A stretch of DNA of 64,000 nucleotides from an uncultured bacterium (GCA_963695335.1 OY968764.1:832001-896000), one strand, 5' to 3'; positions 16,713-63,089 are shown, counted from the first letter of the stretch. Translations and numbers: made by a program. The notes: a model not told the origin generated them from the letters alone.

Positions 16713-17662
16713 AAAAATTAGTAATAGCTTTATTCTTGGGTGGTGCAATGGGCACCATTTTTTTTTCGGGATATCAATCACATGATATAAAAATGCAACA
16801 AACCTACTTCGCTAAAGCTACGAAGGTCAAGAAAACTTTAATAATTGTTGCAACAACAAGTATGCTTGCAGATGCAGCGCGTAATATTGTTGGAGATAAT
16901 ATCACGGTATACGGTTTGATGGGCGCCGGTGTTGATCCGCATTTGTATCGCGCCAGAGAAAGTGATGTGCACAAGTTAGCAGCGGCAGACATGGTGATTT
17001 ATAATGGATTGCATTTGGAAGGTAAAATGGGGCAGGTGTTGCAAGGCATGCAACGTTTTACTAACGTGTGTGCAGTAGCAAATACACTTAAAAAAGAGCA
17101 GTTGCGCTCATCTGAATTTGATGATCTGTATGATCCGCATATTTGGTTTGATGTTCTTTTGTGGATAGAGCTTGTGCGTTATATGCAGCAACAGATTATT
17201 GCGCTTGATCCTGAGCATGCAGATGTATATCAAAAAAATGGCGATGATTATATTGATGAACTTGAACAACTGCATGAATATGTGCAGCGACGAGTGAACG
17301 AGCTTGATGTGGATAAAAGAATTTTAATCACCGCGCATGATGCGTTTGGTTATTTTGGTGCGCGATATGGTTTTGAAGTTATTGGTCTGCAAGGTTTGAG
17401 TACCGATTGTGATATTAGCACAAAAGATATTCAGCAGCTTGCAGATTTTATTGTTGAAAAACAAATTTCTACTATGTTTGTTGAATCATCAATTCCACAA
17501 CGTGCTTTGGTTGCAGCGCAAAATGCTGTGTGCGCACGTGGATGGAATATTGCAATTGGCCCTGAATTGTATTCTGATGCGCTTGGTGATGAACAGAGTG
17601 GCGCGTCATCATATATTGCAATGGTGAAATATAATGTTAATGCGATTGTTGATTCTCTTTAA
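16709..17662 (+). CDS. troA: Mn/Zn/Fe ABC transporter substrate-binding protein (TroA/YtgA type)
   Basis: GVDPHLY, YNGLHLEG, DPHIWFD, TAHDAFGYF, LYSDALG; ATGA overlap with dprA stop. Confidence 0.9.
   Translation: MKKLVIALFLGGAMGTIFFSGYQSHDIKMQQTYFAKATKVKKTLIIVATTSMLADAARNIVGDNITVYGLMGAGVDPHLYRARESDVHKLAAADMVIYNGLHLEGKMGQVLQGMQRFTNVCAVANTLKKEQLRSSEFDDLYDPHIWFDVLLWIELVRYMQQQIIALDPEHADVYQKNGDDYIDELEQLHEYVQRRVNELDVDKRILITAHDAFGYFGARYGFEVIGLQGLSTDCDISTKDIQQLADFIVEKQISTMFVESSIPQRALVAAQNAVCARGWNIAIGPELYSDALGDEQSGASSYIAMVKYNVNAIVDSL
16802..16831 (+). repeat. Family B 30-bp palindrome in frame in troA
   Basis: ACCTACTTCGCTAAAGCTACGAAGGTCAAG (TYFAKATKVK). Confidence 0.85.
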
Positions 17663-18444
17663 ACAGCGTATGATTTAAGCCATGCGAGTTCTGCATATAT
17701 TTTGTCAATTGTTCTTATTTCTTTATAAAGATCAATAGGTATATTGCGTGTTTCTTTTACAAATGTATTAAATAGATCAATATATTTTTCACTTTTTGCG
17801 GCAAGTCCAATAAATAATTCTTTATTCCTTTCATCTAATAAAATAGTGTTATGCGTAAAATCTGATTTTCTATGCATCGCAATAGTAATCAAATAAAGAC
17901 ACCAAGCTTCTTGTGCTTTAAGAGAAAGCTTTTTCATAAAATGAGAATCAGCGTTGACAGAATATTGAGGTGGGGAGCTGAAATGAAAATCTTCATTATA
18001 TGGAGGACAAAGAAAATACGAAGTTTTTTCTGCTAAAAACAGGGAAAATTTGTCTTTATGAATATTATTTTGTTTGATGATTTTCTTTAACATGGCATGA
18101 CAATGCTGTGGTATATCATTATCATAAAGAATGGTGCGGTATTCATGTTGATCGGTATATGGTACTGTGCTTGCTTTTTTTCGAAAGCTTTCTAATGTTT
18201 TGTTGTGATCCATAAAGGCTTGATTTGTGTTTTTTGGGTTCCAGTCAAAAGAATCATTATTTTTATATACTGTTTCATCAAAGATTCTTCGTTCATCAGG
18301 GATTTTATGTGACTTTTTGCGTTTATGAGACTTTTTTGAAGGTGTTTTTGTTATATTTTGTGTATATTCATTCTCCATGCTAGTAGCTATTTGTGAACAA
18401 CATAGTAATAATATAATTAAGAATTTTTTTGATGTGAACTTCAT
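17659..18444 (-). CDS. Secreted hypothetical protein inside the tro cluster
   Basis: Signal peptide ...QIATS-ME, basic KKSHKRKKSHK patch. Confidence 0.75.
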   Translation of the reverse strand: MKFTSKKFLIILLLCCSQIATSMENEYTQNITKTPSKKSHKRKKSHKIPDERRIFDETVYKNNDSFDWNPKNTNQAFMDHNKTLESFRKKASTVPYTDQHEYRTILYDNDIPQHCHAMLKKIIKQNNIHKDKFSLFLAEKTSYFLCPPYNEDFHFSSPPQYSVNADSHFMKKLSLKAQEAWCLYLITIAMHRKSDFTHNTILLDERNKELFIGLAAKSEKYIDLFNTFVKETRNIPIDLYKEIRTIDKIYAELAWLKSYAV

Positions 18445-18505
18445 TGTCACCTTTTATTTAAAGAAATTTTTGTATAATATCTACTATTTTTTTATACTTA
18501 AAGCA

Positions 18506-19327
18506 ATGAAAAATATATCAAAAATACCAGCATTAGATGTTTCTCATCTTACTGTTGAATACAACCCTACTTCGCTAAAGCTACGAAGGGCAAGTCCCAA
18601 TTTAATTCTAGCCAATTTTTCAGTCACTATTCCACAAGGTGTGATGTGTGGCATTATTGGGCCCAATGGTGCAGGTAAAACAACGCTCATGAAAGCGTTG
18701 CTCCAATTAATACCCATTTCTGCAGGCAATGTGCAAATTTTGGGAAATTCTTTTAAAAATGTGCGCAATAAAATTGCATACATCCCTCAACGCAGTTCTG
18801 TTGATTGGGATTTTCCGATCACCGTGTTTGATATGGTATTAATGGGTTGTTATGGAAGATTAGGCTGGTTTAAGCGTCCAACAAATGCTGATCGTATTAA
18901 AGTATATGAGTCTCTTGCTGCCGTAGGCTTGTGCGAATATGCAGATAAATCAATTAGTGTACTATCTGGCGGGCAACAACAACGAGCGTTTTTAGCACGT
19001 GCGCTCATGCAAGATGCGCATATTTATTTTTTGGATGAACCATTCGCTGGTGTGGATATTGAAGCTGAAAAAATTATTATTACTCTTTTTAAGAAATTAC
19101 GTGATGAAGGCAAAACAGTTATTGTTGTTCATCACGATCTTTTTACGGCATCAACATATTTTGATTATATTTTATTACTGAATAAAACGTGTATTGCTTC
19201 TGGGCCTACTGAGCAAGTGTTAAATGCATTCAATCTTGAATGCACATATGGCCGCATACCCTTCGATACATTTTTTGAAGACAAAAAACACTCAGGGCGA
19301 GCGGAAAGAGAATTCTTAGAGCAATAA
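18506..19327 (+). CDS. troB: Metal ABC transporter ATPase (TroB)
   Basis: GPNGAGKTT, LSGGQQQR, FLDEPFAGVD, VHHDL. Confidence 0.92.
   Translation: MKNISKIPALDVSHLTVEYNPTSLKLRRASPNLILANFSVTIPQGVMCGIIGPNGAGKTTLMKALLQLIPISAGNVQILGNSFKNVRNKIAYIPQRSSVDWDFPITVFDMVLMGCYGRLGWFKRPTNADRIKVYESLAAVGLCEYADKSISVLSGGQQQRAFLARALMQDAHIYFLDEPFAGVDIEAEKIIITLFKKLRDEGKTVIVVHHDLFTASTYFDYILLLNKTCIASGPTEQVLNAFNLECTYGRIPFDTFFEDKKHSGRAEREFLEQ
18565..18594 (+). repeat. Family B 30-bp palindrome in frame in troB
   Basis: CCCTACTTCGCTAAAGCTACGAAGGGCAAG (PTSLKLRRAS). Confidence 0.85.
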
Positions 19328-19403
19328 AAGAAGAGTTAATCCCCGCTCGCCCTGAGTGTTCTTCGTAGCTTTAGCGAAGAAGAATGTATCGAAGGGTATG
19401 CGG
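19252..19403. repeat. Family A inverted pair; left arm forms the troB C-terminus, right arm carries a family B core
   Basis: CCGCATACCCTTCGATACA...CACTCAGGGCGAGCGG / CCGCTCGCCCTGAGTG[TTCTTCGTAGCTTTAGCGAAGAAGAA]TGTATCGAAGGGTATGCGG. Confidence 0.85.
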
Positions 19404-19419
19404 GAAAAAGAAAGTTAAA

Positions 19420-21125: not shown

Positions 21126-21198
21126 TCATTTTTGAGAAATCTATATACTGGATAGTATATAATGAAGTGTTAGGGGAATTATCAATTTGGAGACAATT

Positions 21199-22101: not shown

Positions 22102-22110
22102 AGGCAATTT

Positions 22111-23034: not shown

Positions 23035-23133
23035 TCATTTGATTTTGCGTTATTTAAAGAAATCTCGTATAATAATGTATATTCCTTAGTTTAAAACATA
23101 AATTTATATTTTTTTAGTTTTTAGGATGATGTC

Positions 23134-23391: not shown

Positions 23392-23423
23392 TTAATGAGT
23401 TATATAGTACGGGGAAAACCACA

Positions 23424-24479: not shown

Positions 24480-24515
24480 CACTTTATTTTTTTCTTGAAG
24501 TATGATACGTTGCTG

Positions 24516-24546
24516 CTTATCCGCCGAAGCTTTATGCGTAGGAGGA
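24516..24546 (-). repeat. Family B palindrome, intergenic
   Basis: Reverse complement TCCTCCTACGCATAAAGCTTCGGCGGATAAG. Confidence 0.7.
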
Positions 24547-25260: not shown

Positions 25261-25283
25261 TAAATTTTATTTATAATTATGAA

Positions 25284-30663: not shown

Positions 30664-33390
30664 TTATTTGTGCATCTCTTTTACAAATTCACTCAACTCT
30701 TTTTTCACCGCAGTATCTTTGAGTGATGGTTGTTGCGTATCAATTTTTTTATCAATCAATTGTGCAATAGATTCCAGAGTTATTGGTTGTTTGAGTTTTT
30801 TAATCTCTTGCGATGTTAAAAATTTCTTACTGAGATAATTCATATCCGTTGTTGGTGCAAAGTTAAGAGAGTAAATGAATTTCGCCAGATGAGGATCTTC
30901 AAAGTTATTGATTTCTGTTTCGCATTGATACATATTTCCATTGAATTCAAAAGCGACTTCTAAATGTGCGCGTATAGTCTGTCCAGGAATATGTTTTATC
31001 TGAATAATAAGATTGTTGATGACATTGGTGGCACTTTGTTTGATAGATATACCAGTTACCTTTTTTACTATAAATGTTTGTGGATGAATGCGAGCATTGA
31101 AAGATATAAAGTTAAAGATGAGTGCCTGTAATGGATTTTCAAAACTTATTTCTTTAAATAGGTGAATTGCTTCATGAGATGGATTAATGAGGGCAGGCGT
31201 TGGTGATATTATTGCACAATGCATATTTTTACCAAAATTAAGTGAAGCGTTGATACGCGATGGAGTAATGGTAATAAGGTCAATATTTGTATCACTCAGA
31301 TCTATTGGTCTGTTTTCAATTTCATGAGCTTTAATGAGTGTGTTGGTTATATTTTTTGTTTTTTTACCAAGGGACAGTGCACCAAAAACACCAACACCAG
31401 GAAAACGAATAAAGGGTTGATTTTGTGGATTCATAGCAGGGACAATAGCACTCAGAACATAAGCAAATGGCTCTTGTTCTGTTTTATCTTTTTTTGTTTC
31501 CACAAACGTTTCTGGTCTATCAATAAATATTTTTAAAACTTTGAAGAATGCAGAGAATGGTTTTTTTGATACTACCGTATACGGTGCTTTTGAGTTGAAT
31601 GTTAAGATTAAATGTGGTCCCTGGGTTGGTCTTTCATCCAACCCTTGGGTTGAAACAATAAAATTAACATTAAGTGATGAGAGTGTTTCATTAACAAAAG
31701 TTTGCTTGTATCCACCATCAAGACAACTTGTATAATGTACGTAATACATATATAAGTTGTGGTCAAAGAATGTCATGAGAGATGAAAAATCATCCATTGT
31801 GGTTCCTGCAATGTTCGCTTGTCCTATTACAAGTTGTGAGTCTGGCCAATCTGATTTCCCTTGTAATATTTTTTCGTATTTTTTAATGTTTTCTTCAGCG
31901 ATAATTATATTTTGTTGAGCATCATGGTGTTTTCTATTGTTTTGTAATGCTTCCTGATAAAAAGCAAGATTTTGTTGGTTGATATCTAATTGTTCACGAA
32001 TAGAACCTATCGATTGGTAATACGCTCCTCCATGCCCTCCAAGATATATAATCCATGGTATAACTTCTGCTGGTGTGATTAGTTCCCCATTGCTTTTTTG
32101 TGGGATAAAGAGTGATATGAGGTTATGTATGAATGTAGTTTTATGTTGAGATGTTTCTTGTATTTTGAGTTGTAGCAGAAGATTTTCGGCGCTTAAATTA
32201 TCAATTGGAGTGGTCATTGCTGGATTAAATCCGCATTTTTTTGCTTGATCTTGCAAGTTAAACTGAGAAGCATCTTCTATATTGTCTATAATGTACTGTT
32301 GAGGAATAACGAGTACTAAATCTTCTGATCTATGGAAATAAAAGGTGAAGTGTTTGCTATCAAAATCAATTAAGCTCAGAATAATTAAATGTAATGGATT
32401 TTCATGTAGCTTATATGATGTCAGTAGTTTCTGGGCAAATGGGTCCGATTGGTTGCTGTTTCGTAACATCTGTAAATTATTTTCGCCGATTGTGTGTCTT
32501 AGATGAGTAATGATTCCCAAGATATTGCTGGACATTATTATGGGGGCGGCTTGCTCATAGAGTGCAAGTAGTGCATCTTGCACCAGAAGTCGTGCTGATC
32601 CCTGTAAGGTTTCTTCTTTTTCTGGATCAAGTAACATAATCAGGTCATGAGTTGTAAAATGTTTTTGTGTACGCTCTATAATAGATTTTTTTTCCTTTAC
32701 TTGCTTGCCCTTTGTAGCTTCACCGTGTCCTCCGAAGCTTTCAGCGAAGGATGGAGCGGAGTAGGGTTCATCTTTTTTGTTATTGCCTGTTGGGGTCATA
32801 TAAATCATTGCCACAGCTTCTAAAAGAGCTGTAGTGTCTTCATCAGAAAGATGTTGTGCTCTTATAAATTCAATAAATGGGTGAGTGAATGTATTATTGA
32901 TCAATATATCATGATCAGACATTGTGGCTGTTATGTAATCCAGTACTTCGGCATATCTACTTGATTGTTTGCTTTGAGTAGAGGAGCTGGCTGTTGTGGA
33001 TTCCATGAGGGGTGGAAGTGCTGGCAATGTTCTTTGAGGTGGCAAACTATTGAAGGGTCTGTTTTGAGTACTGGAACTCGTTGTTGTGGGTTCCTTTTGG
33101 TGTGGTTTTGATGGAGGTGTTGGTAATGCTCTTTTTGTTGATGGATTGTTGTATTGTATGTCTTGAATAGAAGAACTGGCTGTTGTAGATTCCAGTGGAG
33201 CTGGAAGTGCTGCTCGTGGTCTTTGCGGTGGATTTGTATGTAATGGTCTATTTTGAGCAGATGCACTCGTTGTTGGTCTCATCACTGGGCTCGGTTTTGA
33301 TGGACGTGCTGGCTTTTCGGGCTCCATTGAGTTAATTGAGGTTATGCACAGTAGTGCTATAGTGACAAGCATATTTTTAAGATAATTCAT
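30664..33390 (-). CDS. Secreted protein, PST repeats plus putative caspase-fold (clan CD) protease domain
   Basis: WIIYLGGHGG and YVHYTSCLDGG; paralog of 33421-35556. Confidence 0.65.
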   Translation of the reverse strand: MNYLKNMLVTIALLCITSINSMEPEKPARPSKPSPVMRPTTSASAQNRPLHTNPPQRPRAALPAPLESTTASSSIQDIQYNNPSTKRALPTPPSKPHQKEPTTTSSSTQNRPFNSLPPQRTLPALPPLMESTTASSSTQSKQSSRYAEVLDYITATMSDHDILINNTFTHPFIEFIRAQHLSDEDTTALLEAVAMIYMTPTGNNKKDEPYSAPSFAESFGGHGEATKGKQVKEKKSIIERTQKHFTTHDLIMLLDPEKEETLQGSARLLVQDALLALYEQAAPIIMSSNILGIITHLRHTIGENNLQMLRNSNQSDPFAQKLLTSYKLHENPLHLIILSLIDFDSKHFTFYFHRSEDLVLVIPQQYIIDNIEDASQFNLQDQAKKCGFNPAMTTPIDNLSAENLLLQLKIQETSQHKTTFIHNLISLFIPQKSNGELITPAEVIPWIIYLGGHGGAYYQSIGSIREQLDINQQNLAFYQEALQNNRKHHDAQQNIIIAEENIKKYEKILQGKSDWPDSQLVIGQANIAGTTMDDFSSLMTFFDHNLYMYYVHYTSCLDGGYKQTFVNETLSSLNVNFIVSTQGLDERPTQGPHLILTFNSKAPYTVVSKKPFSAFFKVLKIFIDRPETFVETKKDKTEQEPFAYVLSAIVPAMNPQNQPFIRFPGVGVFGALSLGKKTKNITNTLIKAHEIENRPIDLSDTNIDLITITPSRINASLNFGKNMHCAIISPTPALINPSHEAIHLFKEISFENPLQALIFNFISFNARIHPQTFIVKKVTGISIKQSATNVINNLIIQIKHIPGQTIRAHLEVAFEFNGNMYQCETEINNFEDPHLAKFIYSLNFAPTTDMNYLSKKFLTSQEIKKLKQPITLESIAQLIDKKIDTQQPSLKDTAVKKELSEFVKEMHK
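32704..32766 (-). repeat. Family B nested in family B, in frame (63 bp)
   Basis: CTTGCCCTTTGTAGCTTCA[CCGTGTCCTCCGAAGCTTTCAGCGAAGGATGG]AGCGGAGTAGGG. Confidence 0.75.
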
Positions 33391-33420: not shown

Positions 33421-35556
33421 TTAGATTTTTGCATCAATAAACTGTGCAATAGCATCCAAATTGTTTGGTTTAAGTTTGGCAACCTCTTGTGGGGTCAAAA
33501 ATTGTTGGGCAATGGAATTGATGTTAGTTGGCGAAAAAGAGATTTTTTGCATATTTTTGAGTATCTCATTAAGATCGTCAAATGTTTTTATGGCTACTGA
33601 ATATTGATATACATTTTTATTCAACTCAAAAGCAACATGCACATTTGCACCTAACTTAGCAATTGGAATATCATGTGATTGTAAAGGTTGAGTTTGTACT
33701 GATGGTTTAGGTGAAGCTCCAGGACCTGTGCCCATCATGCCATCTATTTTAATGATGAGATTGTTTATGTTCCCTTCTTGTGTTTGTAATTTTTTAACAA
33801 CAAAAAGTTGTGTATGCATTTTTGGATTAAGACGTACAAAATTAAAAATCAATTCTTGTAGTTGAATATTCCAACTGATTTCTTTAAAGACGCGACCTGT
33901 TTGGCGAGATTGAGTCATCACTGTGGGAGTTACGATTGCGCAATCGGTATTGTCACCAATATTTATTGCAACATTAATTCGCAATGGATTTACCATAATA
34001 ATACCAATATCTTTATTACTCATATCTATGGGTCGGTGTTCAGCTTCATGCTTTTTTATTATTCTTTCTGATAAGACTTCTGTATTTTTACTGATAGAAA
34101 GAGCACCAAACACACCTTTTCCCGGAAAGCGCACAAATGGTTGGTTATTTTCAGTTTCATGGGGATTAAGAGCACGTATAATTTTTGCAACGGGTTCTTT
34201 TTTCCCTTCTTTTATTTTTATAAACTCTTTTGGTTGACCAATGTAATGTCTGAGTAACTTAAAGAAGTCAGTAAAAGGGTGATACTGTAATTGTATATAA
34301 GGTTGTATGGAACTAAATCGCATAGATAATGGTATTCCTGTTGTTTCTTTTTCACCTAATCCTTCTGATGATACAATAAAATCAACGTCTAATGATGAGA
34401 GTATATCGTTCACAAACAGTTGATTATACCCACCAGAAAAACAGGTTGTATAATGGAGATAGGCAACATTAAGGTTTTCATCAAAAAAGTGCATTAATTG
34501 TGAAAATTCTTGTAATGATATTCCCACAACATTGCCTTTTTCTGGTACAACTTGATACGTATTACCAACAACAAGATAGGTTGGCCCACCATGTCCAGAG
34601 ATGTATTCATCCCATTCAGTATCTTGCTCTGGAGAAATTAATTTTCCATATTTTTTTTGAGGAATAAACAGTGCCGTTAGGTTATCGATAAATTTACTTG
34701 GACCTATAGTTTGTTGCCTGTCCTCCGTAGCCTTGGCGTAGGAGGGCTGAGTTTTTAATTGCTGCAGAAGATTTTCAGGGGTTGTATTGGTAACTCTTGT
34801 AACAATGTTTGAATGAAAACCACATGCTTTGAGTTCATCTTCTGAGCTGAACGATGGGCTGTTAGAAAAGCTGGTACTCATATAACGTTCTGGAATCACT
34901 AATACTAAATGATCTGTTTTGTGGAAGTAATAGTGTAAACTTTTATCATCAAAATTAATAAGACTCATTAAAATAACTGTTAATACTGATTCATTGATAT
35001 TGTATTGTTGCACAAGTTGTTGAGCAAATTGCTGTACCGTATTATAGGAACTGTTACGTAATTTTTGAAAATTTTGTTCACCTATTCTTTGTCTGATGAT
35101 GGTAATAATTTCTAAAATATTACTGCTCATGATAATTGGTGCTGCTTGTTCGTAGAATCCCATGAGAGCATTATTCACCATGGCGTTACCACCACGATTG
35201 ATTGTTTCTACTTTCTTTGGATCAAGGAGCATGATGAGGTTATGCGTTGGAGGGTATGCTTTTATTGAAGAAGGTTGTTTAGTTTCTTTTTTTTCAGGAG
35301 CTTTTTGTACTGGTTGTTTAATGATTGTTGGTTTTTGAGGTTGAATTATTTTTTTTTCTGCTGATGGTTTTGGGGAGATTAGTTTTTGCTGAGGTTGTAT
35401 TACAGGTTTTGGCTGAGGTATGGGTTGAGTTGATGGCTGTGGTTGCATTTGAGATCTATTAGGTTGCGCTGTTGGTACTGATTTTTTCATTTGTTTTGCA
35501 TGTGTAAATTGTATGCAAAACAATGACGTGAGAATAATGTTTTTTAATAGCTTCAT
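33421..35556 (-). CDS. Secreted protein, P/Q-rich linker plus putative clan CD protease domain
   Basis: EYISGHGG and YLHYTTCFSGG; shares LIMLLDP, YEQAAPIIMSSNIL, NQPFxRFPGxGVFGALS with its paralog. Confidence 0.65.
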   Translation of the reverse strand: MKLLKNIILTSLFCIQFTHAKQMKKSVPTAQPNRSQMQPQPSTQPIPQPKPVIQPQQKLISPKPSAEKKIIQPQKPTIIKQPVQKAPEKKETKQPSSIKAYPPTHNLIMLLDPKKVETINRGGNAMVNNALMGFYEQAAPIIMSSNILEIITIIRQRIGEQNFQKLRNSSYNTVQQFAQQLVQQYNINESVLTVILMSLINFDDKSLHYYFHKTDHLVLVIPERYMSTSFSNSPSFSSEDELKACGFHSNIVTRVTNTTPENLLQQLKTQPSYAKATEDRQQTIGPSKFIDNLTALFIPQKKYGKLISPEQDTEWDEYISGHGGPTYLVVGNTYQVVPEKGNVVGISLQEFSQLMHFFDENLNVAYLHYTTCFSGGYNQLFVNDILSSLDVDFIVSSEGLGEKETTGIPLSMRFSSIQPYIQLQYHPFTDFFKLLRHYIGQPKEFIKIKEGKKEPVAKIIRALNPHETENNQPFVRFPGKGVFGALSISKNTEVLSERIIKKHEAEHRPIDMSNKDIGIIMVNPLRINVAINIGDNTDCAIVTPTVMTQSRQTGRVFKEISWNIQLQELIFNFVRLNPKMHTQLFVVKKLQTQEGNINNLIIKIDGMMGTGPGASPKPSVQTQPLQSHDIPIAKLGANVHVAFELNKNVYQYSVAIKTFDDLNEILKNMQKISFSPTNINSIAQQFLTPQEVAKLKPNNLDAIAQFIDAKI
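34717..34746 (-). repeat. Family B 30-bp palindrome in frame
   Basis: 29/30 identical to the ftsK copy; encodes PSYAKATEDR, absent from the paralog. Confidence 0.9.
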
Positions 35557-48258: not shown

Positions 48259-50703
48259 ATGAATATATTTTTTTTAGATAAAAACAGGTTGATTTGGTTG
48301 GTGGGAGCTACTTTTTATGGAGGAATTATTATTTTTTTAATAATTTCTCTTTTTTCGTATAGTCCAACTGATAGTTGTTTGCTTTATATTTCGAGTGCGG
48401 GAAACACTGTTTCTAATTGTGGTGGCTCCCTTGGCGCGCATCTTGCTGCGCTTTTGTTTTATTTTTTTGGAGGAGCATCATTTTTATTACTTATTCCATT
48501 GCTTGTTCTTGGATTGATTGTTTTTACCAAAAAAACATTGCGTGGTAATTGGGAGCGCTTGTGTGCTGCTGTATATATAATGTGTGTTGGGGCTGCATTA
48601 CTTACTACGTATGGTATGGATGTTGCAGTCAGTCCTTATCCTGGTGGATTGATAGGATTGCGGTTTGCGCAAATGTTATTACACTATTTTGATACTATTG
48701 GACGAATTCTTTTTTTATATGGCAGTCTGTGCGCGAGTGTGATTATTGTTTGCCGTTGGTCATTTATGTTTGCAGTACAATATGGCATTGGTGTAGCACA
48801 TCATATATATGTGTTAATGAAAAAATATCGGGTGGTTAGTAAAACCGTATATGCTTTTGGAGTGTGCGTACGTGCATTGTTTGTGCGTCTTCCTATTATA
48901 GTAGTGCAATTTATTATGTCTTTATTAAATGGAACAGCCTTTCATGAAACGGGGTTAATGCATCCTGAAGATGAAGTGAGTGATAACGCTATTGAAGATT
49001 TTGGTTCTACTCAGTTTGGTTGGGGTGAAGAATGTCATTTTACTGAGCAGCAAAAGAGTGATGAAGTTAATTATGTTGTTGTGTCATTGCAACAGCATGA
49101 AAGTTTTGGTGTTTTAAAGTTGCCTGTCACATCGGCTATATTATCATTGTCGCAAAAGAAATCTGCTACAGTATCACATGTGCATCATAAAACTGTTTCT
49201 GTTTCAATTCCATTGCCTACCCAAGTAATAGAAAAGTTAAAATCAATATCGTCACTCAAAAAACAAGCTCCTCAATACGCATTGCCGCACATGGATATTT
49301 TTATTGCAGAAAAACATGTAGAAGATCACAACGTTGAAAAAGAGTTACAAGAGCGTGCACAAGTTCTTGAAGATAAATTAAAACGGTTTGGCGTTAATGG
49401 GCAAGTGGTTGCTATTAAGCGGGGGCCTGTTGTAACCGTGTTTGAGTATCAGCCTGATATTGATACAAAATTAAGTAAAATTATTGTTCTTGAAGATGAT
49501 CTTGCTATGGCACTGCAAGCAATGAGTATTCGTATTATTGCACCAATTCCAGGAAGATCAGTTGTGGGCTTTGAAGTTTCTAATACAACACGTCATGATG
49601 TTCTTTTTTCGCAAATTACACGATCGTCAGCGTACACACAATTTTCAGGTAATTTACCACTTGTGCTTGGTAAAGATACCATTGGTGATGCAGTGATAGT
49701 TGATTTAGCACGTATGCCACATTTATTAATTGCAGGTTCAACAGGGTCAGGAAAATCAGTAGCGCTTAATGCTGTACTGATAAGTTTATTGTGTAAGTTA
49801 AGTCCTGATGAACTGAAACTTATTTTAATAGATCCCAAACGTTTAGAGTTTGCAGCGTTTACTGATATTGCTCATTTACTGTTTCCGATTGTCACGAGCC
49901 CTGTGTATGCAGCTCCTGTTTTAAGATGGGTGGTGCAAGAGATGGAAGATCGTTATGAAAAGATGGCGGAATGTGGGGCTCGTAATATAAATGATTATAA
50001 CGCACGCACCCTTCAACAAGTTTCCTCCTACGCCAAGGCTACGGAGGACAGGCAGGGCGAGCGGAAAGAGATTGATCCTATGCCATATATTGTTGTAGTT
50101 ATTGATGAGTTAGCAGATTTAATGCTTACTGCAGGACGTGATATTGAAGATTTGATTACCCGTATTACACAGATGGCGCGTGCGGCAGGAATTCATATGA
50201 TTGTTGCAACTCAGCGGCCTTCAGTGGATGTTATCACCGGGCTTATTAAAGCTAATTTCCCAAGTAGGATATCATTCAGAGTTGCATCACGTATTGATTC
50301 ACGCACTATTTTAGATACTGTAGGAGCTGACCGTTTACTTGGTCGAGGAGATATGCTTTTTCTTGATGCGGCAACATCACAATTAAGACGCGTGCACGGT
50401 GCATATGTTTCTGATAAAGAGATTGAACAGGTTGCTGATCATATTAGAGCACAAAGAAAAGTTGAATATCTTGATATGCAACAAGTAACTGTGTTGCAGG
50501 GGCAAGATGCAGGAACAATAGACGATGTGCTCTATAAAGATGTACGAGAATTTTTGGGTGATATAGATGAGGTGTCCATTTCTCTTTTGCAGCGAAAATT
50601 CAGAATTGGATATAATAGATCAGCGCGGATTATTGAAATGTTAGAAGCGCAGGGGTTGATTATGCCGCAAGATGGAAGTAAAACACGAAAAGTAATACGT
50701 TAA
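48259..50703 (+). CDS. ftsK: DNA translocase FtsK
   Basis: N-terminal TMs, PHLLIAGSTGSGKS, IDELADLM, ATQRPSVDVITG, gamma domain LQRKFRIGYNRSAR. Confidence 0.96.
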   Translation: MNIFFLDKNRLIWLVGATFYGGIIIFLIISLFSYSPTDSCLLYISSAGNTVSNCGGSLGAHLAALLFYFFGGASFLLLIPLLVLGLIVFTKKTLRGNWERLCAAVYIMCVGAALLTTYGMDVAVSPYPGGLIGLRFAQMLLHYFDTIGRILFLYGSLCASVIIVCRWSFMFAVQYGIGVAHHIYVLMKKYRVVSKTVYAFGVCVRALFVRLPIIVVQFIMSLLNGTAFHETGLMHPEDEVSDNAIEDFGSTQFGWGEECHFTEQQKSDEVNYVVVSLQQHESFGVLKLPVTSAILSLSQKKSATVSHVHHKTVSVSIPLPTQVIEKLKSISSLKKQAPQYALPHMDIFIAEKHVEDHNVEKELQERAQVLEDKLKRFGVNGQVVAIKRGPVVTVFEYQPDIDTKLSKIIVLEDDLAMALQAMSIRIIAPIPGRSVVGFEVSNTTRHDVLFSQITRSSAYTQFSGNLPLVLGKDTIGDAVIVDLARMPHLLIAGSTGSGKSVALNAVLISLLCKLSPDELKLILIDPKRLEFAAFTDIAHLLFPIVTSPVYAAPVLRWVVQEMEDRYEKMAECGARNINDYNARTLQQVSSYAKATEDRQGERKEIDPMPYIVVVIDELADLMLTAGRDIEDLITRITQMARAAGIHMIVATQRPSVDVITGLIKANFPSRISFRVASRIDSRTILDTVGADRLLGRGDMLFLDAATSQLRRVHGAYVSDKEIEQVADHIRAQRKVEYLDMQQVTVLQGQDAGTIDDVLYKDVREFLGDIDEVSISLLQRKFRIGYNRSARIIEMLEAQGLIMPQDGSKTRKVIR
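50009..50064 (+). repeat. Family A repeat with nested family B (50023-50052), in frame in ftsK
   Basis: CCCTTCAACAAGTT[TCCTCCTACGCCAAGGCTACGGAGGACAGG]CAGGGCGAGCGG. Confidence 0.9.
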
Positions 50704-58042: not shown

Positions 58043-58290
58043 TGGACTAACACTACGAAGTATTGATATGTTGAATAAAATTGAAGCAGGTTGATGTTGT
58101 TATCAATTCATATAATGGTTTTACAAAAGGGTTTTTTTGACTGTTTCATATAAAGGTTGAAATATTGAATCCCCCCGTTAGTTTTGATGGCAAAAGGAAT
58201 AGGGGGGCTGTATTCAATTCTTCAACTTAGATTGTTTTGTGGATAAAAAGGTTTTGATACTACTGCTTTGTTTACGATTGAGAGTTAGGT

Positions 58291-60636
58291 TCAATTGTTT
58301 TCAGGCTCATCAATTATGTAATATTCATCGTCCTTTTTTTTCTTACCTTCTTTACATATAAGTTTGCCTTGGTCAACAAGCTCGCTCAATATAGGGTCAT
58401 ATTCCTTGGCTCCGCCATCAAATTGTTTTGAGGTTAATATTGTTTGGCGCGTTACGGTTTTTTTATCTTGGATACGTTTACTAATCCAGTTTATTAAGGT
58501 GCGACATTTTCGTTGGTGATGCGATTCTCCAAATTCTTGTTCTAAAAATCCAATAGTAGATTTAATTGCAGGGTTGAGGAAATGAAAAGCCTTTATTATT
58601 GCATCTCCCGATATTTCTATACTGTTGTGATCTATAAAAAGTTGCATTATCATTGCGATTTTTAGAAGAGCAGGACTCCATCTTTTTAGATATGGTTGAA
58701 TCAGTTTAATCGTTTTATCGTTGCAAGCTCGTGCTGCACAATAAATAAGTATATGGTAACTATGAAAGATTCTTCTTGCATCTGGAGTTAGAGAAAAGGA
58801 TCGTTCTTCTCCTATAGATGTGATAATACGGTCTATATACATTTTGAAAGTCATTTCTTGATTCTCATCAGATACTGCCTGACGAAAAGGCAATGCCGGT
58901 GGAATTTTATCGTTGGATGGTGGAGTTAGTATAATGAGTCGAGCAAAAAAACCGCTTGGAATATCACTCAATTTCATATTTTCTTGAATCCAAGATGCTG
59001 TAGATACACCACAAATCGATATGAAGGGTTTTTTTAATATACAATCTCCTTGTGTTTTAGTTTTATAGCGATAACATGTGGGCACATCATAGAGCTCTGT
59101 CATAATAGCTTTGAAATCATTGTTATGTGTTTTATCCAGGTTTTGTAACCATCCTCCAAATTCACTGGCGAAGATAACCCCTTTATGCTCTTGGGCTAAG
59201 TATTCCAAAAGAGCTTCAGCGGTTATTTTAGTTGGAAGGATAATATTTTCTCTTGATTTGTTTAATTGTTCTTCGGTTAAAGAGCTTTGTTGTTGTGATC
59301 CTGTTTGCAATTCTTTTATTTGAGCAAGTATCTGTGTTTGCAAGTCATAGGCAAGCTTTGCTCCTTTATTGAGAGCGGTGGTTTTGAATTGTCCGCTATT
59401 TGCAATACAAAGAATCCAAAGATTGCTATAAAGAGTTTGGAAGTATTCTCCTTCTGGTATAAAAACTTTGGTGCCTAAATAACCAGACATCATAGAGATT
59501 ACGGATGCTGTAATTATAATTGGATGTGCGTTAGTGGTCTTTTGTATTGACGATATATATTCTCTGAGTGGAGTAGGAAATTTTTTTAATTCAAATTTTT
59601 TGCATGGATCATTGTCACTGAGAAAGTGTTCTCGAGCAACTCTTTTGCCGGCTTCGCTTTTGGCATAGGCTTGAATGAGTTGCTCTCTTACTTCATCAAT
59701 GCCTGCTATTTGAGCAAGATCATTAAAATCAGTGGCATCTTGTTTTTTTTGGTTTGGAAACTCAGGTATAACAAACGAGCAGTCATTAAATTTATTGATT
59801 GCGTCATGAGCTTTCATTGTGCCTATTTCATCATTATCTGCGGCAACAATAAAGATTCTTTGAGGGAATCTTTTTTTTAAATTATCCAGAACTACTGAGA
59901 TATTACCCGCATCAAATGCTACAATTGTTGGTTTTTTGATTGCTTCGTAAATAGATGCACATGTTGCATAACCTTCGCCAATGAACATGACATGTTTATC
60001 ATCAGTTAAATTGCCTATTAAATGGTAGTTTCCTTTTTTCTCGCCACCAGGAAAAAATTTTTTACATGTTTTTCCTTCTTCCATGGAAATAAATTGTAAA
60101 GATCGTAGTTCATCTTCATTATTATACAGAGGAATAACAAGAGAGGGGTATCCTTGTAGATTATTGCTAAATCTGACGGTATTGCTTGGTTCAATACCTT
60201 TGACACTGATGTATTGTAGGTAGTCATTTGTAGATGGCGTTATGGAACATTGCTCCCAAAAGCTTTGAGCTGATTTTGCAGCTTTTTCTTGGTTTTCACG
60301 AATATTATTTTCTGTCTTTAATATATTGAGGCGAGCAATTTCTTTTAATTCTGCGCGTTCGTCATCATTAACAGAAGTGTCTTGATCAAAAGATTTATAT
60401 GTATGTTTTATTCCATCTTTCCATGACGCAAAAACAACATTCAAGAAATGGTTACCTTGAGATGAAGTGCCTTCATAGGCAATATACCATTCATCTTTTT
60501 TATGTTTATTATTGTTGCTTGAGTATCGATGAATTTTAGCATCAGTAATAAGATCACCATCAAAGGTGAGGCCCTTCTCTGCCATATATGATTTACAATT
60601 TTCTTTTAAATTAAATCTTTTTTCGATATTATGCAT
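58291..60636 (-). CDS. Toprim primase fused to DUF3987/YfjI-like helicase
   Basis: IGEGYATCAS, AFDAGN, AADND, TDFNDL; ANSGQFKTT Walker A-like; SEFGGW. Confidence 0.85.
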   Translation of the reverse strand: MHNIEKRFNLKENCKSYMAEKGLTFDGDLITDAKIHRYSSNNNKHKKDEWYIAYEGTSSQGNHFLNVVFASWKDGIKHTYKSFDQDTSVNDDERAELKEIARLNILKTENNIRENQEKAAKSAQSFWEQCSITPSTNDYLQYISVKGIEPSNTVRFSNNLQGYPSLVIPLYNNEDELRSLQFISMEEGKTCKKFFPGGEKKGNYHLIGNLTDDKHVMFIGEGYATCASIYEAIKKPTIVAFDAGNISVVLDNLKKRFPQRIFIVAADNDEIGTMKAHDAINKFNDCSFVIPEFPNQKKQDATDFNDLAQIAGIDEVREQLIQAYAKSEAGKRVAREHFLSDNDPCKKFELKKFPTPLREYISSIQKTTNAHPIIITASVISMMSGYLGTKVFIPEGEYFQTLYSNLWILCIANSGQFKTTALNKGAKLAYDLQTQILAQIKELQTGSQQQSSLTEEQLNKSRENIILPTKITAEALLEYLAQEHKGVIFASEFGGWLQNLDKTHNNDFKAIMTELYDVPTCYRYKTKTQGDCILKKPFISICGVSTASWIQENMKLSDIPSGFFARLIILTPPSNDKIPPALPFRQAVSDENQEMTFKMYIDRIITSIGEERSFSLTPDARRIFHSYHILIYCAARACNDKTIKLIQPYLKRWSPALLKIAMIMQLFIDHNSIEISGDAIIKAFHFLNPAIKSTIGFLEQEFGESHHQRKCRTLINWISKRIQDKKTVTRQTILTSKQFDGGAKEYDPILSELVDQGKLICKEGKKKKDDEYYIIDEPENN

Positions 60637-60698
60637 GTCAGTTCCTATTAAGTGTGAGCCACTGAAGATGATGCTTCAGTGGCTTCTTTTTGGTTATA

Positions 60699-60971
60699 TT
60701 AAGTGAGTATGATTAATTTTTGTAGGACTTCGCATGAAAAATTGTGCTGTTCATTTGAATCGATCAAACCATACGAGCAAAACAATATGAGATTTTCGCT
60801 GTCGCAGCTTTCGATAGATGCTATGTACGATCCTGGATTATCTTTTTTCTTTAAGTGATGTCTTTGTCCATCGGTATATAAGCGCCCTAGTAGTACAAAC
60901 CCTTTTTTCTCCATGTCCCGTCTTGTTAGAAACTTGAAGTAGGGTAGATAGTTAGTTTGTATTATATTCAT
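60699..60971 (-). CDS. Hypothetical protein
   Basis: In apparent operon with primase; ATGA overlap with upstream ORF. Confidence 0.55.
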   Translation of the reverse strand: MNIIQTNYLPYFKFLTRRDMEKKGFVLLGRLYTDGQRHHLKKKDNPGSYIASIESCDSENLILFCSYGLIDSNEQHNFSCEVLQKLIILT

Positions 60972-61126
60972 TGTTTCTTCCTCTGGTGCGCTTGTTGTGC
61001 TGTAGGAGTTATCTTTTCCCTATGGTCTATTTGAATCAAAAGTTGGAAGAATGAAATGAGTCTTTGTTTTTCTTCAGGCGTGAGTTTTGTTGGGATTGCA
61101 TTACTTACTAATTCTCCTTTATTCAT
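60968..61126 (-). CDS. Small hypothetical protein (52 aa)
   Basis: Manual ORF MNKGELVSNAIPTKLTPEEKQRLISFFQLLIQIDHREK...; abuts both neighbours. Confidence 0.55.
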   Translation of the reverse strand: MNKGELVSNAIPTKLTPEEKQRLISFFQLLIQIDHREKITPTAQQAHQRKKQ

Positions 61127-61369
61127 TTAGTATTCCTTGGTGTAAATATCTGCGCCATTGTGGGCATGCATGCGGTCTTCAAGGAATGTAAGGACTGCTT
61201 TTTTTGGATACAAAATTTTGTGTTTCAGCTTGATGTAAGCGGGACTATTTGATCGTTTTCTGGCTAGATATGCTGCATCAATTGATGCATAGATTCCCAG
61301 ATATACGAGGTCTTGTGCTGATAAGAATTCGTTCATTTGGTTGAGCTTGTCTGATAAAGCATTATTCAT
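61127..61369 (-). CDS. AlpA/excisionase-like HTH protein
   Basis: EFLSAQDL...SPAYIKLKHKILYPKKAVLTFL pattern; leads the primase operon. Confidence 0.65.
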   Translation of the reverse strand: MNNALSDKLNQMNEFLSAQDLVYLGIYASIDAAYLARKRSNSPAYIKLKHKILYPKKAVLTFLEDRMHAHNGADIYTKEY

Positions 61370-61533
61370 GGAAAGCCTCTTTATTTAAGAGAGTTCAATG
61401 AAGATGTGAGAGGAAATGCTTTAGGATATATATACAAAAAAATGTATATATTATATATTGATATTGTTATGAGGGTAACAATCCCAAAACATTAGAAAGC
61501 CAGTGAGTTGCCGCTTACTGGTTTTCGCTCTTC

Positions 61534-62604
61534 TTACTCTTCAATAAGAATCTCATTGATTATATTTATGGAATTTTGATTAAGAGCGAGCCATGTTGCT
61601 CGCATAGTATCTGGTTGTACTCGTCTGATTTTTGCCTCCTTACTTGCGTTTGTAAATGAATGATTTAGTCGAGATCGCGTTAATGATCTTCCATTTCTTG
61701 TAATAAATATGTGATTATTATCAGCTCGTTGTTCTTGTGTTGATGCTATGTAATCGTTTAATTTTTTCATGAACGTTTTTGGATATTCTATTGGTTTTTC
61801 ATATTTGATTTTATTTTTGTATTGTAAAAATCGAATGATATTATTTGAAAAATCGATTTGTTCAAGGGTTAATGTTAAAACATCAGAAATACGTACAGCT
61901 CCATAAAACATAGTGCTTGAAATCAGATAATCCCGATAATTATTTTTTGCTAAGAATGTATTAAATTTTTTTAACTCATCTAGAGAAAGAGCTTTTTGCG
62001 ATGTTTTTATAGTTGAGCGATAAACAGATCTTTTTTGAGAAGTTATGGGTAATGCTCTTCGGAACCATCCATTAGTAATACGTTCGAGGAATATACTGAA
62101 TGAAGTGTAACATTCGATACGAGCTATTTTAGCTGTCTTAGATAAATCATTCATGTGTTCTATGTATTGTAGTATTGATTTTTGGTTAATATGCCTTAAA
62201 CCACCTATACTGAATGCTCTGCCATCCGCAAAAGTAGTTGGGATAATATTTTTGTCCATTAGGTCTGTCATGTACGATGTGTATTTGATCTGCGTAGTGT
62301 TTTTTTCAAGCGTTATAAGCCAATTTTGAATGACTGCTGTGATAGGCATATAATCAAGCTCTTCAATTAATTCGTATTGGGCCCGATTTACAGCATTTCG
62401 AAGATTGAATAATTTAAGACTGTCATCTGTACGCTTGAGGATTGGATATTGCTTTTCTTTGGCATGTAATTCTTCTAGGAGTATTCTTCCTTGCGCAAAT
62501 TGCTCATCGTTTTTTTGTAGAATGATGATATCAGGGGATTCTTTTTGAAGTAGATTTGTTTCTTTATCTGATAGCTGTCGCATTAAAAGTTTCGTAGGTA
62601 ACAT
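61534..62604 (-). CDS. Tyrosine recombinase-like protein (chlamydial pGP8-D-like), C-terminally degenerate
   Basis: RDYLI...GAVRISDVLTL, IFITRNG, PDTMRAT; ends before the catalytic Tyr region. Confidence 0.75.
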   Translation of the reverse strand: MLPTKLLMRQLSDKETNLLQKESPDIIILQKNDEQFAQGRILLEELHAKEKQYPILKRTDDSLKLFNLRNAVNRAQYELIEELDYMPITAVIQNWLITLEKNTTQIKYTSYMTDLMDKNIIPTTFADGRAFSIGGLRHINQKSILQYIEHMNDLSKTAKIARIECYTSFSIFLERITNGWFRRALPITSQKRSVYRSTIKTSQKALSLDELKKFNTFLAKNNYRDYLISSTMFYGAVRISDVLTLTLEQIDFSNNIIRFLQYKNKIKYEKPIEYPKTFMKKLNDYIASTQEQRADNNHIFITRNGRSLTRSRLNHSFTNASKEAKIRRVQPDTMRATWLALNQNSINIINEILIEE

Positions 62605-62701
62605 ATCATTCCTTTGTTTGTATCTTTTCTTGAATGAGAAATATGTTACCTCAACAACAGGTTTCGCGCAAGTTTTATTTGCCAACGCGCATAATGTTTT
62701 G

Positions 62702-62806
62702 TTAAACAGATAAGTGAAGCTCAGAAAATACTGTTTGGATGTGTTGTAAACTGAAATCAAAAGTAATTGATCTGTTAAGGAATGAGTCCACTAGGGGCAG
62801 CCATAC
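62702..62806 (-). other. Displaced 3' end of the serine integrase gene
   Basis: From the att core reads VWLPLVDSFLNRSITFDFSLQHIQTVFSELHLSV*, in frame with integrase codon 482. Confidence 0.75.
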
Positions 62807-63089
62807 TACGCTAAAGCTTCGTATGGCAAGCCATACCTTTCAAATGATTGATATAAAAAATTTAAAGAAGTTTGATAGCTGAGCGTAGTATGCCCTTCGA
62901 AGCCTTCGGCGAAGTAGGGCTCTTTTTTTATCCTTGTAATTTTTTCAATGGTAAATCAAATTACGCTAAAGCTTCGTATGGCAAGCCATACCTTTCAAAT
63001 GATTGATATAAAAAATTTAAAAAAGTTTGATAGCTGAGCGTAGTATGCCCTTCGAAGCCTTCGGCGAAGTAGGGCTCTTTTTTTATCCT
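62807..63089. repeat. 128-bp tandem direct repeat (155-bp period), each unit bounded by inverted family B palindromes
   Basis: 62807-62934 vs 62962-63089, one mismatch seen. Confidence 0.92.

What the first reader, a model, noticed from the sequence alone, without database searches (positions are those of the whole stretch)
16802..62830. Family B: a 30-bp, codon-sized palindrome with compensatory changes, read in different frames
Seen: ACCTACTTCGCTAAAGCTACGAAGGTCAAG (16802), CCCTACTTCGCTAAAGCTACGAAGGGCAAG (18565), TCCTCCTACGCCAAGGCTACGGAGGACAGG (50023; reverse at 34717), CCATACTACGCTAAAGCTTCGTATGGCAAG (62801). Outer stems covary (ACCT/AGGT, CCCT/AGGG, TCCT/AGGA, CCAT/ATGG), inner stems covary (GCT/AGC, GCC/GGC), and a CA(A/G)G tail is fixed. 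It encodes TYFAKATKVK in troA but PTSLKLRRAS in troB, so conservation is of the hairpin, not the peptide. Inference: a minimal non-autonomous mobile hairpin.
Basis: partly seen in the sequence, partly recalled or inferred. Interest (0 to 1): 0.85.

Follow-up and report, generated by a model that had tools for sequence, protein, structure and literature searches.

The report
Thirty-base mobile hairpin inside genes
A 30-base DNA hairpin repeat has copied itself about 150 times into this small Dependentiae genome, often as exactly ten extra codons inside working genes, and the same tiny element also turns up in phage DNA of very different composition, with no enzyme in sight that moves it.

Summary
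The 30-bp imperfect palindrome is at all five quoted places, and a position matrix finds six more copies in the window and about 158 in the 1.37-Mb genome (shuffled genome: 0-1). Pairing covaries in one register: a 6-bp outer stem, a fixed 3x3 mismatch and a 3-bp inner stem. The CA(A/G)G tail lies outside the pairing.

It is an insertion. The troB copy is an exact 30-bp gap in 8 of 8 genus relatives. The FtsK copy sits inside a second short repeat (module X) that is empty at the same site in a sister species. Copies also lie precisely inside other copies, always in the host's orientation and without target duplication.

56% of copies lie in the 11% of DNA that is non-coding. Genic copies favour one frame (S-F/Y-A-K-A-S/T-E/A-D-K/R).

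The exact pattern occurs in 129 of 261 Dependentiae genomes, in 0 of 401 genomes of a Clostridia-containing phylum, and in tailed-phage contigs of 36-72% GC.

No Y1, Y2, reverse-transcriptase or TnpB gene tracks it. I read it as a new REP/RPE-like selfish hairpin family moved in trans by an unidentified enzyme.

The parts
16802..16831 (+). Solo 30-bp copy in frame 0 (TYFAKATKVK). It lies between the signal/anchor segment and the ZnuA domain of the TroA/ZnuA-type binding protein.
   Evidence: It is absent in G005, G008 and G004 (gaps of 12, 12 and 9 aa). At nucleotide level G005 lacks the 30 bp plus 6 more.
18565..18594 (+). Solo 30-bp copy in frame 2 (PTSLKLRRAS), near the N-terminus of the ABC ATPase and before the ABC_tran domain.
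   Evidence: It is an exact 30-bp gap in 8 of 8 genus relatives.
19343..19397 (-). A family-B-like hairpin (TTCTTC...GAAGAA variant) held between the two arms of an X-type module, in the troB-troC spacer. An inverted partner module carrying an AT-rich hairpin lies at about 19258-19310.
   Evidence: The 55 bp are identical to genome 565460-565514.
24515..24545 (-). Variant copy with a 5-nt loop, just upstream of the likely true start (MAIQNT) of a 252-aa ORF.
32704..32766 (-). Nested pair inside the 908-aa gene. A 30-nt host copy (12 + 18 nt; PYSA..EATKGK) is split in its loop by a 33-nt 'CATCC' variant at 32722-32754 (PSFAESFGGHG).
34717..34746 (-). Solo 30-bp copy in frame 0 (PSYAKATEDR) in the 711-aa gene.
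   Evidence: It is absent in G008 and G002. In G005 it is present at the same site but differs at 6 of 30 bases.
50010..50066 (+). Composite inside the FtsK motor domain: the left arm of module X, the 30-bp hairpin (50023-50052; SSYAKATEDR), then the right arm of X.
   Evidence: G008 has an empty X at the same loop and G005 has neither.
62801..62830 (+). Intergenic copy in the first unit of a roughly 155-bp tandem duplication, 41 bp upstream of a tyrosine-recombinase gene.
62888..62918 (-). Intergenic variant copy with a 5-nt loop, in inverted orientation within the same unit.
62956..62985 (+). Copy in the second tandem unit; its left arm is degraded.
   Evidence: 139 bp at 97% identity to the first unit.
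63043..63073 (-). Inverted variant copy in the second tandem unit.

Best explanation
Family B is a miniature, non-autonomous selfish DNA element of the REP/RPE kind. The unit is 30 nt: Y-C-C-N-N-C, then T-N-C, G-C-Y, A-A, R-G-C, T-W-C, G-N-N-G-G-R, and the tail C-A-N-G. Positions 1-6 pair with 21-26 and positions 10-12 pair with 15-17. The two T-N-C triplets stay unpaired, and the C-A-N-G tail marks one strand.

Shown: new copies appear as precise 30-bp insertions (32-33 bp for variants with longer loops). There is no target-site duplication. The orientation relative to the target is fixed. Unpaired parts of other short repeats are preferred targets: right after the loop-proximal ..A-R-G-C-T of another copy or of module X, or inside the loop.

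Inferred: the element is handled as a folded single strand by a structure- and strand-specific cut-and-join enzyme supplied in trans, in the manner of HUH/Y1 enzymes acting on REPs and IS200/IS605 ends. Only copies that keep the pairing and the fixed core are copied again. That would explain compensatory stem changes across subfamilies while individual old copies decay. Selection on the host then filters where copies survive: spacers, and loops of proteins. The 30 bp add ten codons, and the commonest variant has no stop codon on either strand.

The enzyme is not identified.
For: Abundance and limits: about 158 copies, with conservation confined to about 31 columns.

Insertion: there is an exact 30-bp gap in troB in 8 of 8 relatives. 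At the orthologous FtsK loop, G008 has an empty X where G000 has X plus 30 bp.

Nesting: the host sequence resumes exactly after the insert at 360774, 134745, 813974, 1352468 and 779976, and at window 32704-32766. Module X has 112 empty copies and at least 8 filled ones. Removing 30 bp in silico restores a hairpin across the junction in 7-8 of 114 elements and an X in 2-4; other lengths restore 0-4. Hairpins plus X make up only about 0.5% of the genome. Every nested or hosted copy listed has the host's orientation.

No duplication: 69 of 96 phage-contig copies have zero identical flanking bases.

Pairing constraint.

Decay of an old copy: the copy shared by G000 and G005 differs at 6 of 30 bases, while its flanks are 72% identical.

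Selection filter: 77 of 137 copies are intergenic although about 89% of the genome is coding, and 33 of 44 sense copies are in frame 0.

Spread: 129 of 261 Dependentiae genomes carry the pattern, with 0 control hits. In phage contigs, 105 of 127 pattern matches carry a complementary left arm that the pattern did not ask for. A stricter pattern gives 46 further loci at 36-72% GC, in contigs with portal, terminase and capsid genes.
Against: No enzyme is linked to the element. The only Y1 transposases in this genome are three identical IS200-like copies whose end hairpins are unlike family B. PF01797 is missing from element-rich genomes: G008 (27 exact matches, single contig), G009 (25), G217 (35), and 8 of 8 genomes of genus g33. 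Y2 transposases and reverse transcriptases were found in 0 of 5 genomes, and TnpB in 2 of 5.

The free-DNA hairpin is barely more stable than shuffled sequence. The CCTAC/GAAGG subfamily prefers another register.

The 5' flank is only loosely defined: A at 42 and T at 27 of 96 copies, with TGA 13 times and GCT 8 times. A strict target word like that of IS200/IS605 is therefore not seen.

Strand bias relative to replication is weak (68 against 46, confounded by gene orientation).

Movement is inferred from differences between species. No polymorphism within a population was seen.
Confidence: 0.7

Rival explanations
1. It is a classical REP mobilised by a resident Y1 (IS200/RAYT-type) transposase.
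For: The size, the imperfect palindrome, the unpaired tag at one end, the lack of target duplication and the strand-specific insertion all fit REP/IS200 logic. G000 does carry three intact Y1 genes.
Against: These Y1 genes sit in a 571-bp IS with its own, unrelated end hairpins. None is flanked by family B in the RAYT manner. PF01797 is present in 94 of 261 genomes and the element in 129 of 261, and element-rich G008, G009, G217 and genus g33 have no PF01797. The tag is not GTAG.
Confidence: 0.08
2. It is not a transposon but a product of hairpin-driven replication and repair. Template switching within quasi-palindromes makes the two arms match, and ectopic gene conversion or templated repair spreads the motif.
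For: This would explain compensatory arm changes without selection. It needs no dedicated enzyme, which fits the missing transposase and the wide host range. It would also fit the clustering in and next to other repeats.
Against: The 3x3 mismatch is kept rather than corrected: it pairs in only 13.6% of cells. The inserts differ in subfamily from their hosts, so they are not local duplications. Solo copies sit in unique genes with exact 30-bp boundaries and no flanking homology. The asymmetric tail is conserved.
Confidence: 0.1
3. It is a host-useful motif (an RNA hairpin that stabilises or attenuates transcripts, or a protein-binding site) kept by selection at each site.
For: 56% of copies are intergenic. 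As RNA, the perfect-stem copies fold as the covariation predicts, at -7 to -12 kcal/mol with z -2.2 to -2.6. In GC-rich phage contigs, 13 of 96 copies directly follow TGA.
Against: Copies occur in both orientations relative to genes and in five of the six frames. Presence at a given site differs between sister species. The one orthologous copy has drifted as fast as its flanks. No T-run follows the hairpin. No Rfam family matches.
Confidence: 0.08
4. It spreads through RNA, by reverse transcription of a transcribed hairpin and re-insertion.
For: The RNA form is the more stable one. An RNA route has been proposed for the yeast mitochondrial GC clusters (PMC4478555, passages read).
Against: PF00078 was found in 0 of 5 genomes, including four that carry the element, while the control genomes gave hits. 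Copies lie on both strands relative to transcription.
Confidence: 0.03

Closest known systems
REP elements, in particular the transposase-less CGTC-tagged REP superfamily, which includes Neisseria dRS3 and Rickettsia RPE-4/RPE-6 (Di Nocera et al. 2013, PMC3733652; abstract and passages read)
   Same: These are palindromic units of about 30 nt with an unpaired tag at one end. They are high in copy number and mostly extragenic, with some units inside genes. They are spread over several phyla, often clustered or in dimers, and CGTC REPs have no dedicated transposase.
   Different: The tag here is C-N-T-G (read on the bottom strand), not GTAG or CGTC/TGTC/CCTC. The stem is 6 bp, then a fixed 3x3 mismatch, then 3 bp with an A-A loop centre, not 8-9 contiguous bp with A/T at the first two positions and a 4-5 nt loop. 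There is no CCA tail. The host phylum is not among those listed in the paper.
Rickettsia palindromic elements (RPE). PMC10969869 was seen only in a search listing. Ogata 2002 and Claverie & Ogata 2003 were seen only as reference-list entries of PMC3733652.
   Same: They are palindromic repeats inserted in frame in protein-coding genes of an obligate intracellular bacterium with a small AT-rich genome, and are tolerated as extra surface peptide.
   Different: By my recollection, the classical RPE-1 type is about 100-150 bp and confined to Rickettsia. This unit is 30 bp, phylum-wide in Dependentiae, and also present in phage contigs of high GC.
Yeast mitochondrial GC clusters such as GC42 (Wu & Hao 2015, PMC4478555; passages read)
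   Same: They are short GC-rich hairpins scattered in an AT-rich genome, with constrained stems, merger and shuffling of units, horizontal exchange and an unknown mobilising mechanism.
   Different: GC42 is 42 bp and flanked by a putative AG target duplication; here there is no duplication. These are bacterial and phage hosts, not mitochondria.
IS200/IS605 ends and their miniature derivatives
   Same: This is the proposed way of working: a folded single strand, strand-specific joining next to a short word, and no target duplication.
   Different: The resident IS200-like element has different end hairpins. A single hairpin would have to serve as both ends. The element does not co-occur with the transposase.

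Membership tests
REP (GTAG-tagged, RAYT-associated) | 20-40 bp imperfect palindrome in high copy number, mainly extragenic | tested here: met
   30-bp unit, about 158 copies; 77 of 137 copies lie in the roughly 11% of DNA that is non-coding.
REP (GTAG-tagged, RAYT-associated) | Unpaired GTAG tetranucleotide at one end | tested here: not met
   The tail is C-A-N-G on the top strand, which reads C-N-T-G on the bottom strand.
REP (GTAG-tagged, RAYT-associated) | A RAYT (Y1, PF01797) gene flanked by the repeats (a REPtron) | tested here: not met
   The only three PF01797 genes lie in an IS200-like element with unrelated ends. PF01797 is absent from G008, G009, G217 and genus g33, which carry the element.
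CGTC-tagged REP superfamily | Terminal CGTC (or TGTC/CCTC) motif; 8-9 bp stem with A/T at the first two positions; 4-5 nt loop; CCA tail (PMC3733652) | tested here: not met
   Consensus and pair table: a 6-bp stem starting Y-C-C, an internal 3x3 mismatch, a 3-bp inner stem and a C-A-N-G tail.
CGTC-tagged REP superfamily | No dedicated transposase | tested here: met
Rickettsia palindromic elements | In-frame insertion of a palindromic repeat in conserved genes, with empty sites in relatives | tested here: met
   troB, troA, FtsK and the 711-aa gene.
Rickettsia palindromic elements | Sequence family and size of the RPEs (about 100-150 bp for RPE-1; recalled, not from a call) | not tested
   No RPE sequence was compared. 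The 30-bp size differs from the recalled RPE-1 size.
MITE | Terminal inverted repeats plus target-site duplication | tested here: not met
   The whole unit is one hairpin. 69 of 96 copies have no identical flanking base, and nested hosts resume without duplication.
IS200/IS605-derived miniature element | Ends matching those of a resident IS | tested here: not met
   The IS end hairpins, read, differ from family B.
Yeast-type GC cluster | GC-rich hairpin in an AT-rich genome, with units merging or nesting | tested here: met
   Genome GC is 35.7%. Nesting is shown.
Yeast-type GC cluster | AG target-site duplication (PMC4478555) | tested here: not met

The most novel reading that the evidence does not exclude
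A 30-nucleotide hairpin with a nearly invariant core propagates across distant bacterial lineages and their tailed phages without any dedicated transposase. It would exploit a widespread host or phage single-strand DNA enzyme that cuts and joins at unpaired positions of extruded hairpins. That would make it one of the smallest horizontally spreading mobile elements, and a steady source of ten-residue loops in essential proteins.
Probability: 0.25. Interest if true: 0.85.

Novelty: new member of a known kind. Interest (0 to 1): 0.6.

Why it matters
Small palindromic repeats that survive inside genes are known from Rickettsia and from some REP families, but how transposase-less ones spread is an open question.

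This family offers unusually clean material. It has a fixed 30-nt unit, junctions mapped to the base by nested copies, and an orthologous empty target. It has a strand mark and clear pairing rules, and a second module that acts as a preferred landing site. These features make in-vitro cleavage and joining assays, and enzyme hunts by phylogenetic profiling, directly designable.

It also matters for annotating Dependentiae and phage metagenomes. Peptides such as S-F-A-K-A-S-E-D-K or L-R-Q-G-F-G-G-Q inside proteins are repeat-derived, not homology signals. Such repeats can also break assemblies.

Tried and rejected
- **Y1 transposase as the mobiliser.** Rejected on non-co-occurrence and unlike end hairpins.
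- **Y2 transposase PF04986.** Found in 0 of 5 genomes, but the control genomes gave no hit either, so this is uninformative.
- **Reverse transcriptase PF00078.** Found in 0 of 5 genomes, with working controls.
- **TnpB PF01385.** Found in only 2 of 5 genomes and not in G000 or G008.
- **Tyrosine recombinases.** Four in the genome. One adjoins the 62.8-kb cluster and one lies near a weak copy, but there is no consistent adjacency.
- **Target-site duplication.** None found.
- **Replication-strand bias.** 68 against 46, confounded by gene orientation; not used as evidence.
- **Population polymorphism.** Four soil runs were held only as low-depth contigs. No indel was seen at element sites and most sites were not bridged, so nothing can be concluded.
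- **Rfam.** The only gathering-score match in the window is a tRNA.
- **Plasmids and phage isolates.** BLAST of one 31-nt variant against 72,556 plasmids and 50,697 phage isolates gave no match at E <= 0.01. The test is weak, because only near-identical copies of that one stem variant could pass.
- **Recurrent neighbour gene in phage contigs.** Sought in 150 of 278 ORFs, from 25 of 46 loci. Only ordinary phage genes and a few HNH endonucleases appeared.
- **Earlier notes of this scan.** Look-ups by place and by sequence gave nothing.
- **Not used.** The complex and structure prediction tools were not called.


Full report
**What is there**

The window is part of a single-contig genome of 1,366,684 bp with 35.7% GC. 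Record titles of its relatives place it in Candidatus Dependentiae / Babeliales.

A core regular expression finds 52 copies in the genome. Column statistics show that conservation stops abruptly outside about 31 columns. A position matrix built from these copies scores 110 sites at 14 bits or more, against 1 in a locally shuffled genome. After iteration it gives 158 non-overlapping sites at 12 bits or more, 11 of them in the window. Variants with one or two extra loop bases exist (31-33 bp).

**Structure**

Among 75 unique copies, the five column pairs with the highest mutual information all lie on one antidiagonal. This gives the following layout:
- Positions 1-6 pair with positions 21-26.
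- Positions 10-12 pair with positions 15-17, around an A-A centre.
- Positions 7-9 and 18-20 (both T-N-C) are conserved and unpaired.
- Positions 27-30 (C-A-N-G) form an unpaired tail.

In 71 unique canonical copies, 91.2% of stem cells form standard pairs. Shuffling the partners gives 74.8 +/- 1.0% (maximum 78.2% in 1000 shuffles), and sliding them gives at most 49%. Eight of the nine pairs show more than one pair type. The internal triplets pair in only 13.6% of cells.

An independent set gives the same picture. It holds 5 window copies plus all 104 distinct phage-contig sequences that matched a pattern covering only the core and the right arm, chance hits included. Pairing is 88.9% against 78.7 +/- 0.7% (0 of 500 shuffles), and the covariation score is 0.316 against 0.156 (0 of 500).

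Thermodynamically the DNA hairpin is weak: -2.8 to -4.9 kcal/mol, with z -0.6 to -1.8. The CCTAC/GAAGG subfamily prefers a shifted register. As RNA, perfect-stem copies fold as predicted at -7 to -12 kcal/mol, with z about -2.2 to -2.6. The pairing constraint is therefore real, but it probably reflects recognition by a protein rather than stand-alone stability.

**It is an insertion**

- *troB.* The ABC ATPase gene is colinear in eight genus relatives, and all eight lack exactly the 30 bp.
- *troA.* The ZnuA/TroA-type gene lacks the segment in G005, G008 and G004. Against G005 the difference is the 30 bp plus 6 bp.
- *The 711-aa gene.* The copy is absent in G008 and G002. It is present in G005, where it differs at 6 of 30 bases while the flanks are 72% identical.
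- *FtsK.* Six Dependentiae relatives lack the segment.

The FtsK case is the clearest. G000 has the left arm of a second short repeat (module X), then the 30-bp hairpin, then the right arm of X. G008 has an empty, somewhat diverged X at the same loop. G005 has neither. G009 has a different GC-rich palindrome at that loop.

**Junctions to the base**

Module X (24 bp) occurs 112 times uninterrupted. At least 8 further copies are interrupted, between ..G-C-T and C-A-G-G.., by a family-B unit of 29-32 bp. Seven more carry an AT-rich hairpin there.

Family-B units also sit inside other family-B units. Five do so immediately after the loop-proximal A-A-G-G-C-T / A-A-A-G-C-T / A-A-A-A-C-T: genome 360774, 134745, 813974, 1352468 and 779976. 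The last of these is a 32-bp variant. Three copies of one subfamily sit inside the loop instead: 749314, 550013 and 997984. In each case the host resumes exactly after the insert. The insert belongs to a different stem or loop subfamily from its host, so these are not local duplications.

The window holds such a nest at 32704-32766(-). A 30-nt host is split 12 + 18 by a 33-nt variant, and the whole is read as 21 residues of the 908-aa protein. The same triple nest (X, then hairpin, then variant) occurs in an unrelated Babeliales assembly (L064).

Removing 30 bp in silico from each of 114 elements restores a hairpin across the junction in 7-8 and an X in 2-4. Other lengths restore 0-4. Hairpins plus X cover only about 0.5% of the genome, so this is a strong preference. 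All nested and hosted copies listed share the orientation of their host. No target duplication is seen, either here or in 96 phage-contig copies (69 with zero identical flanking bases).

**Where copies survive**

The gene calls are crude: 1237 ORFs of 90 aa or more, covering 89% of the genome. On that basis, 77 of 137 copies (20 bits or more) are intergenic.

Of the 60 genic copies, 44 are in the sense orientation:
- 33 in frame 0 (S/P-S/Y-F/Y-A-K-A-S/T-E/A/K-D/G-K/R);
- 8 in frame 1 (L-R-Q-G-F/Y-G-G-Q);
- 3 in frame 2 (P-T-S-L-K-L-R-R).

The other 16 are antisense, 10 of them in one frame. Direct reading shows that the commonest variant has no stop codon on either strand.

The window hosts are a ZnuA-type binding protein (the insert lies before the domain), an ABC ATPase (the insert lies before the ABC_tran domain) and FtsK (the insert lies inside the motor domain, in a variable loop). 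Many intergenic copies are parts of larger composite repeats of 55-200 bp.

**Distribution**

An exact 20-nt pattern is present in 129 of 261 Dependentiae genomes (96 of 189 high-quality ones) and in 9 of 10 genomes of the genus. The reversed control pattern gives zero hits everywhere. Counts range from 0 to 35 per genome. The pattern is absent from 401 sampled genomes of the phylum that contains a Clostridia assembly.

Of 127 matches, 105 carry a left arm complementary at 5-6 of 6 positions, although the pattern did not ask for it; about 14 look like chance. A stricter 24-nt pattern gives 46 loci in contigs of 36-72% GC. Pfam annotation of 150 of 278 ORFs (25 of the 46 loci) finds portal, terminase, capsid, Mu-like and tail genes.

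The element is thus not restricted to AT-rich Dependentiae. An earlier unchecked note of this scan (e1-4096724) says that a 30-base hairpin in another Dependentiae genome recurs in many phyla. My data support occurrence in diverse phage contigs but not ubiquity.

BLAST of one 31-nt variant found nothing in plasmid or phage-isolate collections. That test is weak, because only near-identical copies of that one stem variant could pass.

**What moves it**

- The genome has three identical 571-bp IS200-like elements with a 142-aa Y1 transposase. Their end hairpins are unrelated to family B.
- Across the phylum, PF01797 is in 94 of 261 genomes. It is missing from element-rich G008, G009, G217 and all 8 genomes of genus g33.
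- Reverse transcriptase was found in 0 of 5 genomes, and TnpB in 2 of 5. The Y2 search was uninformative.
- Tyrosine recombinases show no consistent adjacency.

The enzyme therefore remains unknown. The anatomy still points to single-strand, structure-guided cut-and-join of the kind HUH enzymes perform on REPs and IS200/IS605 ends. That mechanism is general knowledge recalled here; only its REP side is documented in PMC3733652. The features pointing that way are a strand mark, fixed unpaired triplets, obligatory pairing with free choice of the paired bases, no target duplication, orientation-specific insertion, and targets in the unpaired parts of other hairpins. I put this mechanism at about one in three. 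The broader statement, a selfish element moved in trans, I put at about 0.7.

**Comparison with the literature**

- Di Nocera et al. 2013 (PMC3733652; abstract and passages) define the GTAG and CGTC REP superfamilies, note REPs inside genes, and state that CGTC REPs lack a dedicated transposase. The tag, stem and loop rules they give are not met here.
- Wu & Hao 2015 on yeast mitochondrial GC42 (PMC4478555; passages) describe a 42-bp GC hairpin with constrained stems, merging units, an AG duplication and an unknown mechanism.
- The words 'palindrom' and 'hairpin' do not occur in the TM6 comparative-genomics paper (PMC4776705) or the Chromulinavorax paper (PMC6561590).
- The RepRanger survey (PMC12306157) does not mention Dependentiae.
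- Full-text searches for Dependentiae + palindromic, Babeliales + repeats + genome, and Babela massiliensis + palindromic gave nothing relevant.

Within this library I found no description of the family. Supplements were not consulted.

**Verdict**

The thing is a new family of a known kind (REP/RPE-like coding palindromes). It has unusually well-defined junctions, self-nesting and nesting in X, and a reach into phages of very different base composition.

Noticed in passing
window 50010-50022 + 50053-50066; genome-wide: Module X is a 24-bp repeat (C-C-T-T-C-G-A-C-A-G-G-C-T / C-A-G-G-A-C-G-A-G-C-G type). It has 112 uninterrupted copies, is itself found in frame in genes, and serves as a landing site for family B. 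In a variant, it carries an AT-rich hairpin instead.
   Followed up: partly
G000:C1:369061-369631, 574421-574991 and 1166579-1167149 (L001-L003): Three copies (two identical, the third 570/571) of a 571-bp IS200-like element encode a 142-aa Y1 transposase and have their own perfect end hairpins. The element looks recently active.
   Followed up: partly
window 61534-62760(-) and 62760-63430: A 408-aa tyrosine-recombinase (phage integrase family) gene lies directly beside a roughly 155-bp tandem duplication that holds four hairpin copies in alternating orientation. This may be the border of an integrated element.
   Followed up: no
L068 (G008) about 2250-2300; L061 (G009) about 2215-2260: The same FtsK loop carries an empty X in G008, together with an apparent frame change (two in-frame stops in the tblastn alignment). 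In G009 it carries an unrelated GC-rich palindrome. The loop is a hotspot for tolerated inserts, or the G008 assembly has an indel error.
   Followed up: partly
window 30664-33390(-) and 33421-35556(-): Two adjacent large genes (908 and 711 aa) have no Pfam match. They belong to a family with several tandem paralogues in genus relatives.
   Followed up: no
genome-wide, for example 148100, 611448, 776725, 904559, 1297921: Composite repeats of 100-200 bp contain a family-B-like hairpin next to other conserved modules. Several such families exist (a-e), along with other dispersed repeats of 80-200 bp seen in the 20-kb DNA search.
   Followed up: partly
phage-contig loci L194-L239: In GC-rich phage contigs, 11 of 46 copies follow a T-G-A triplet directly. 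This suggests insertion or survival right after stop codons.
   Followed up: no
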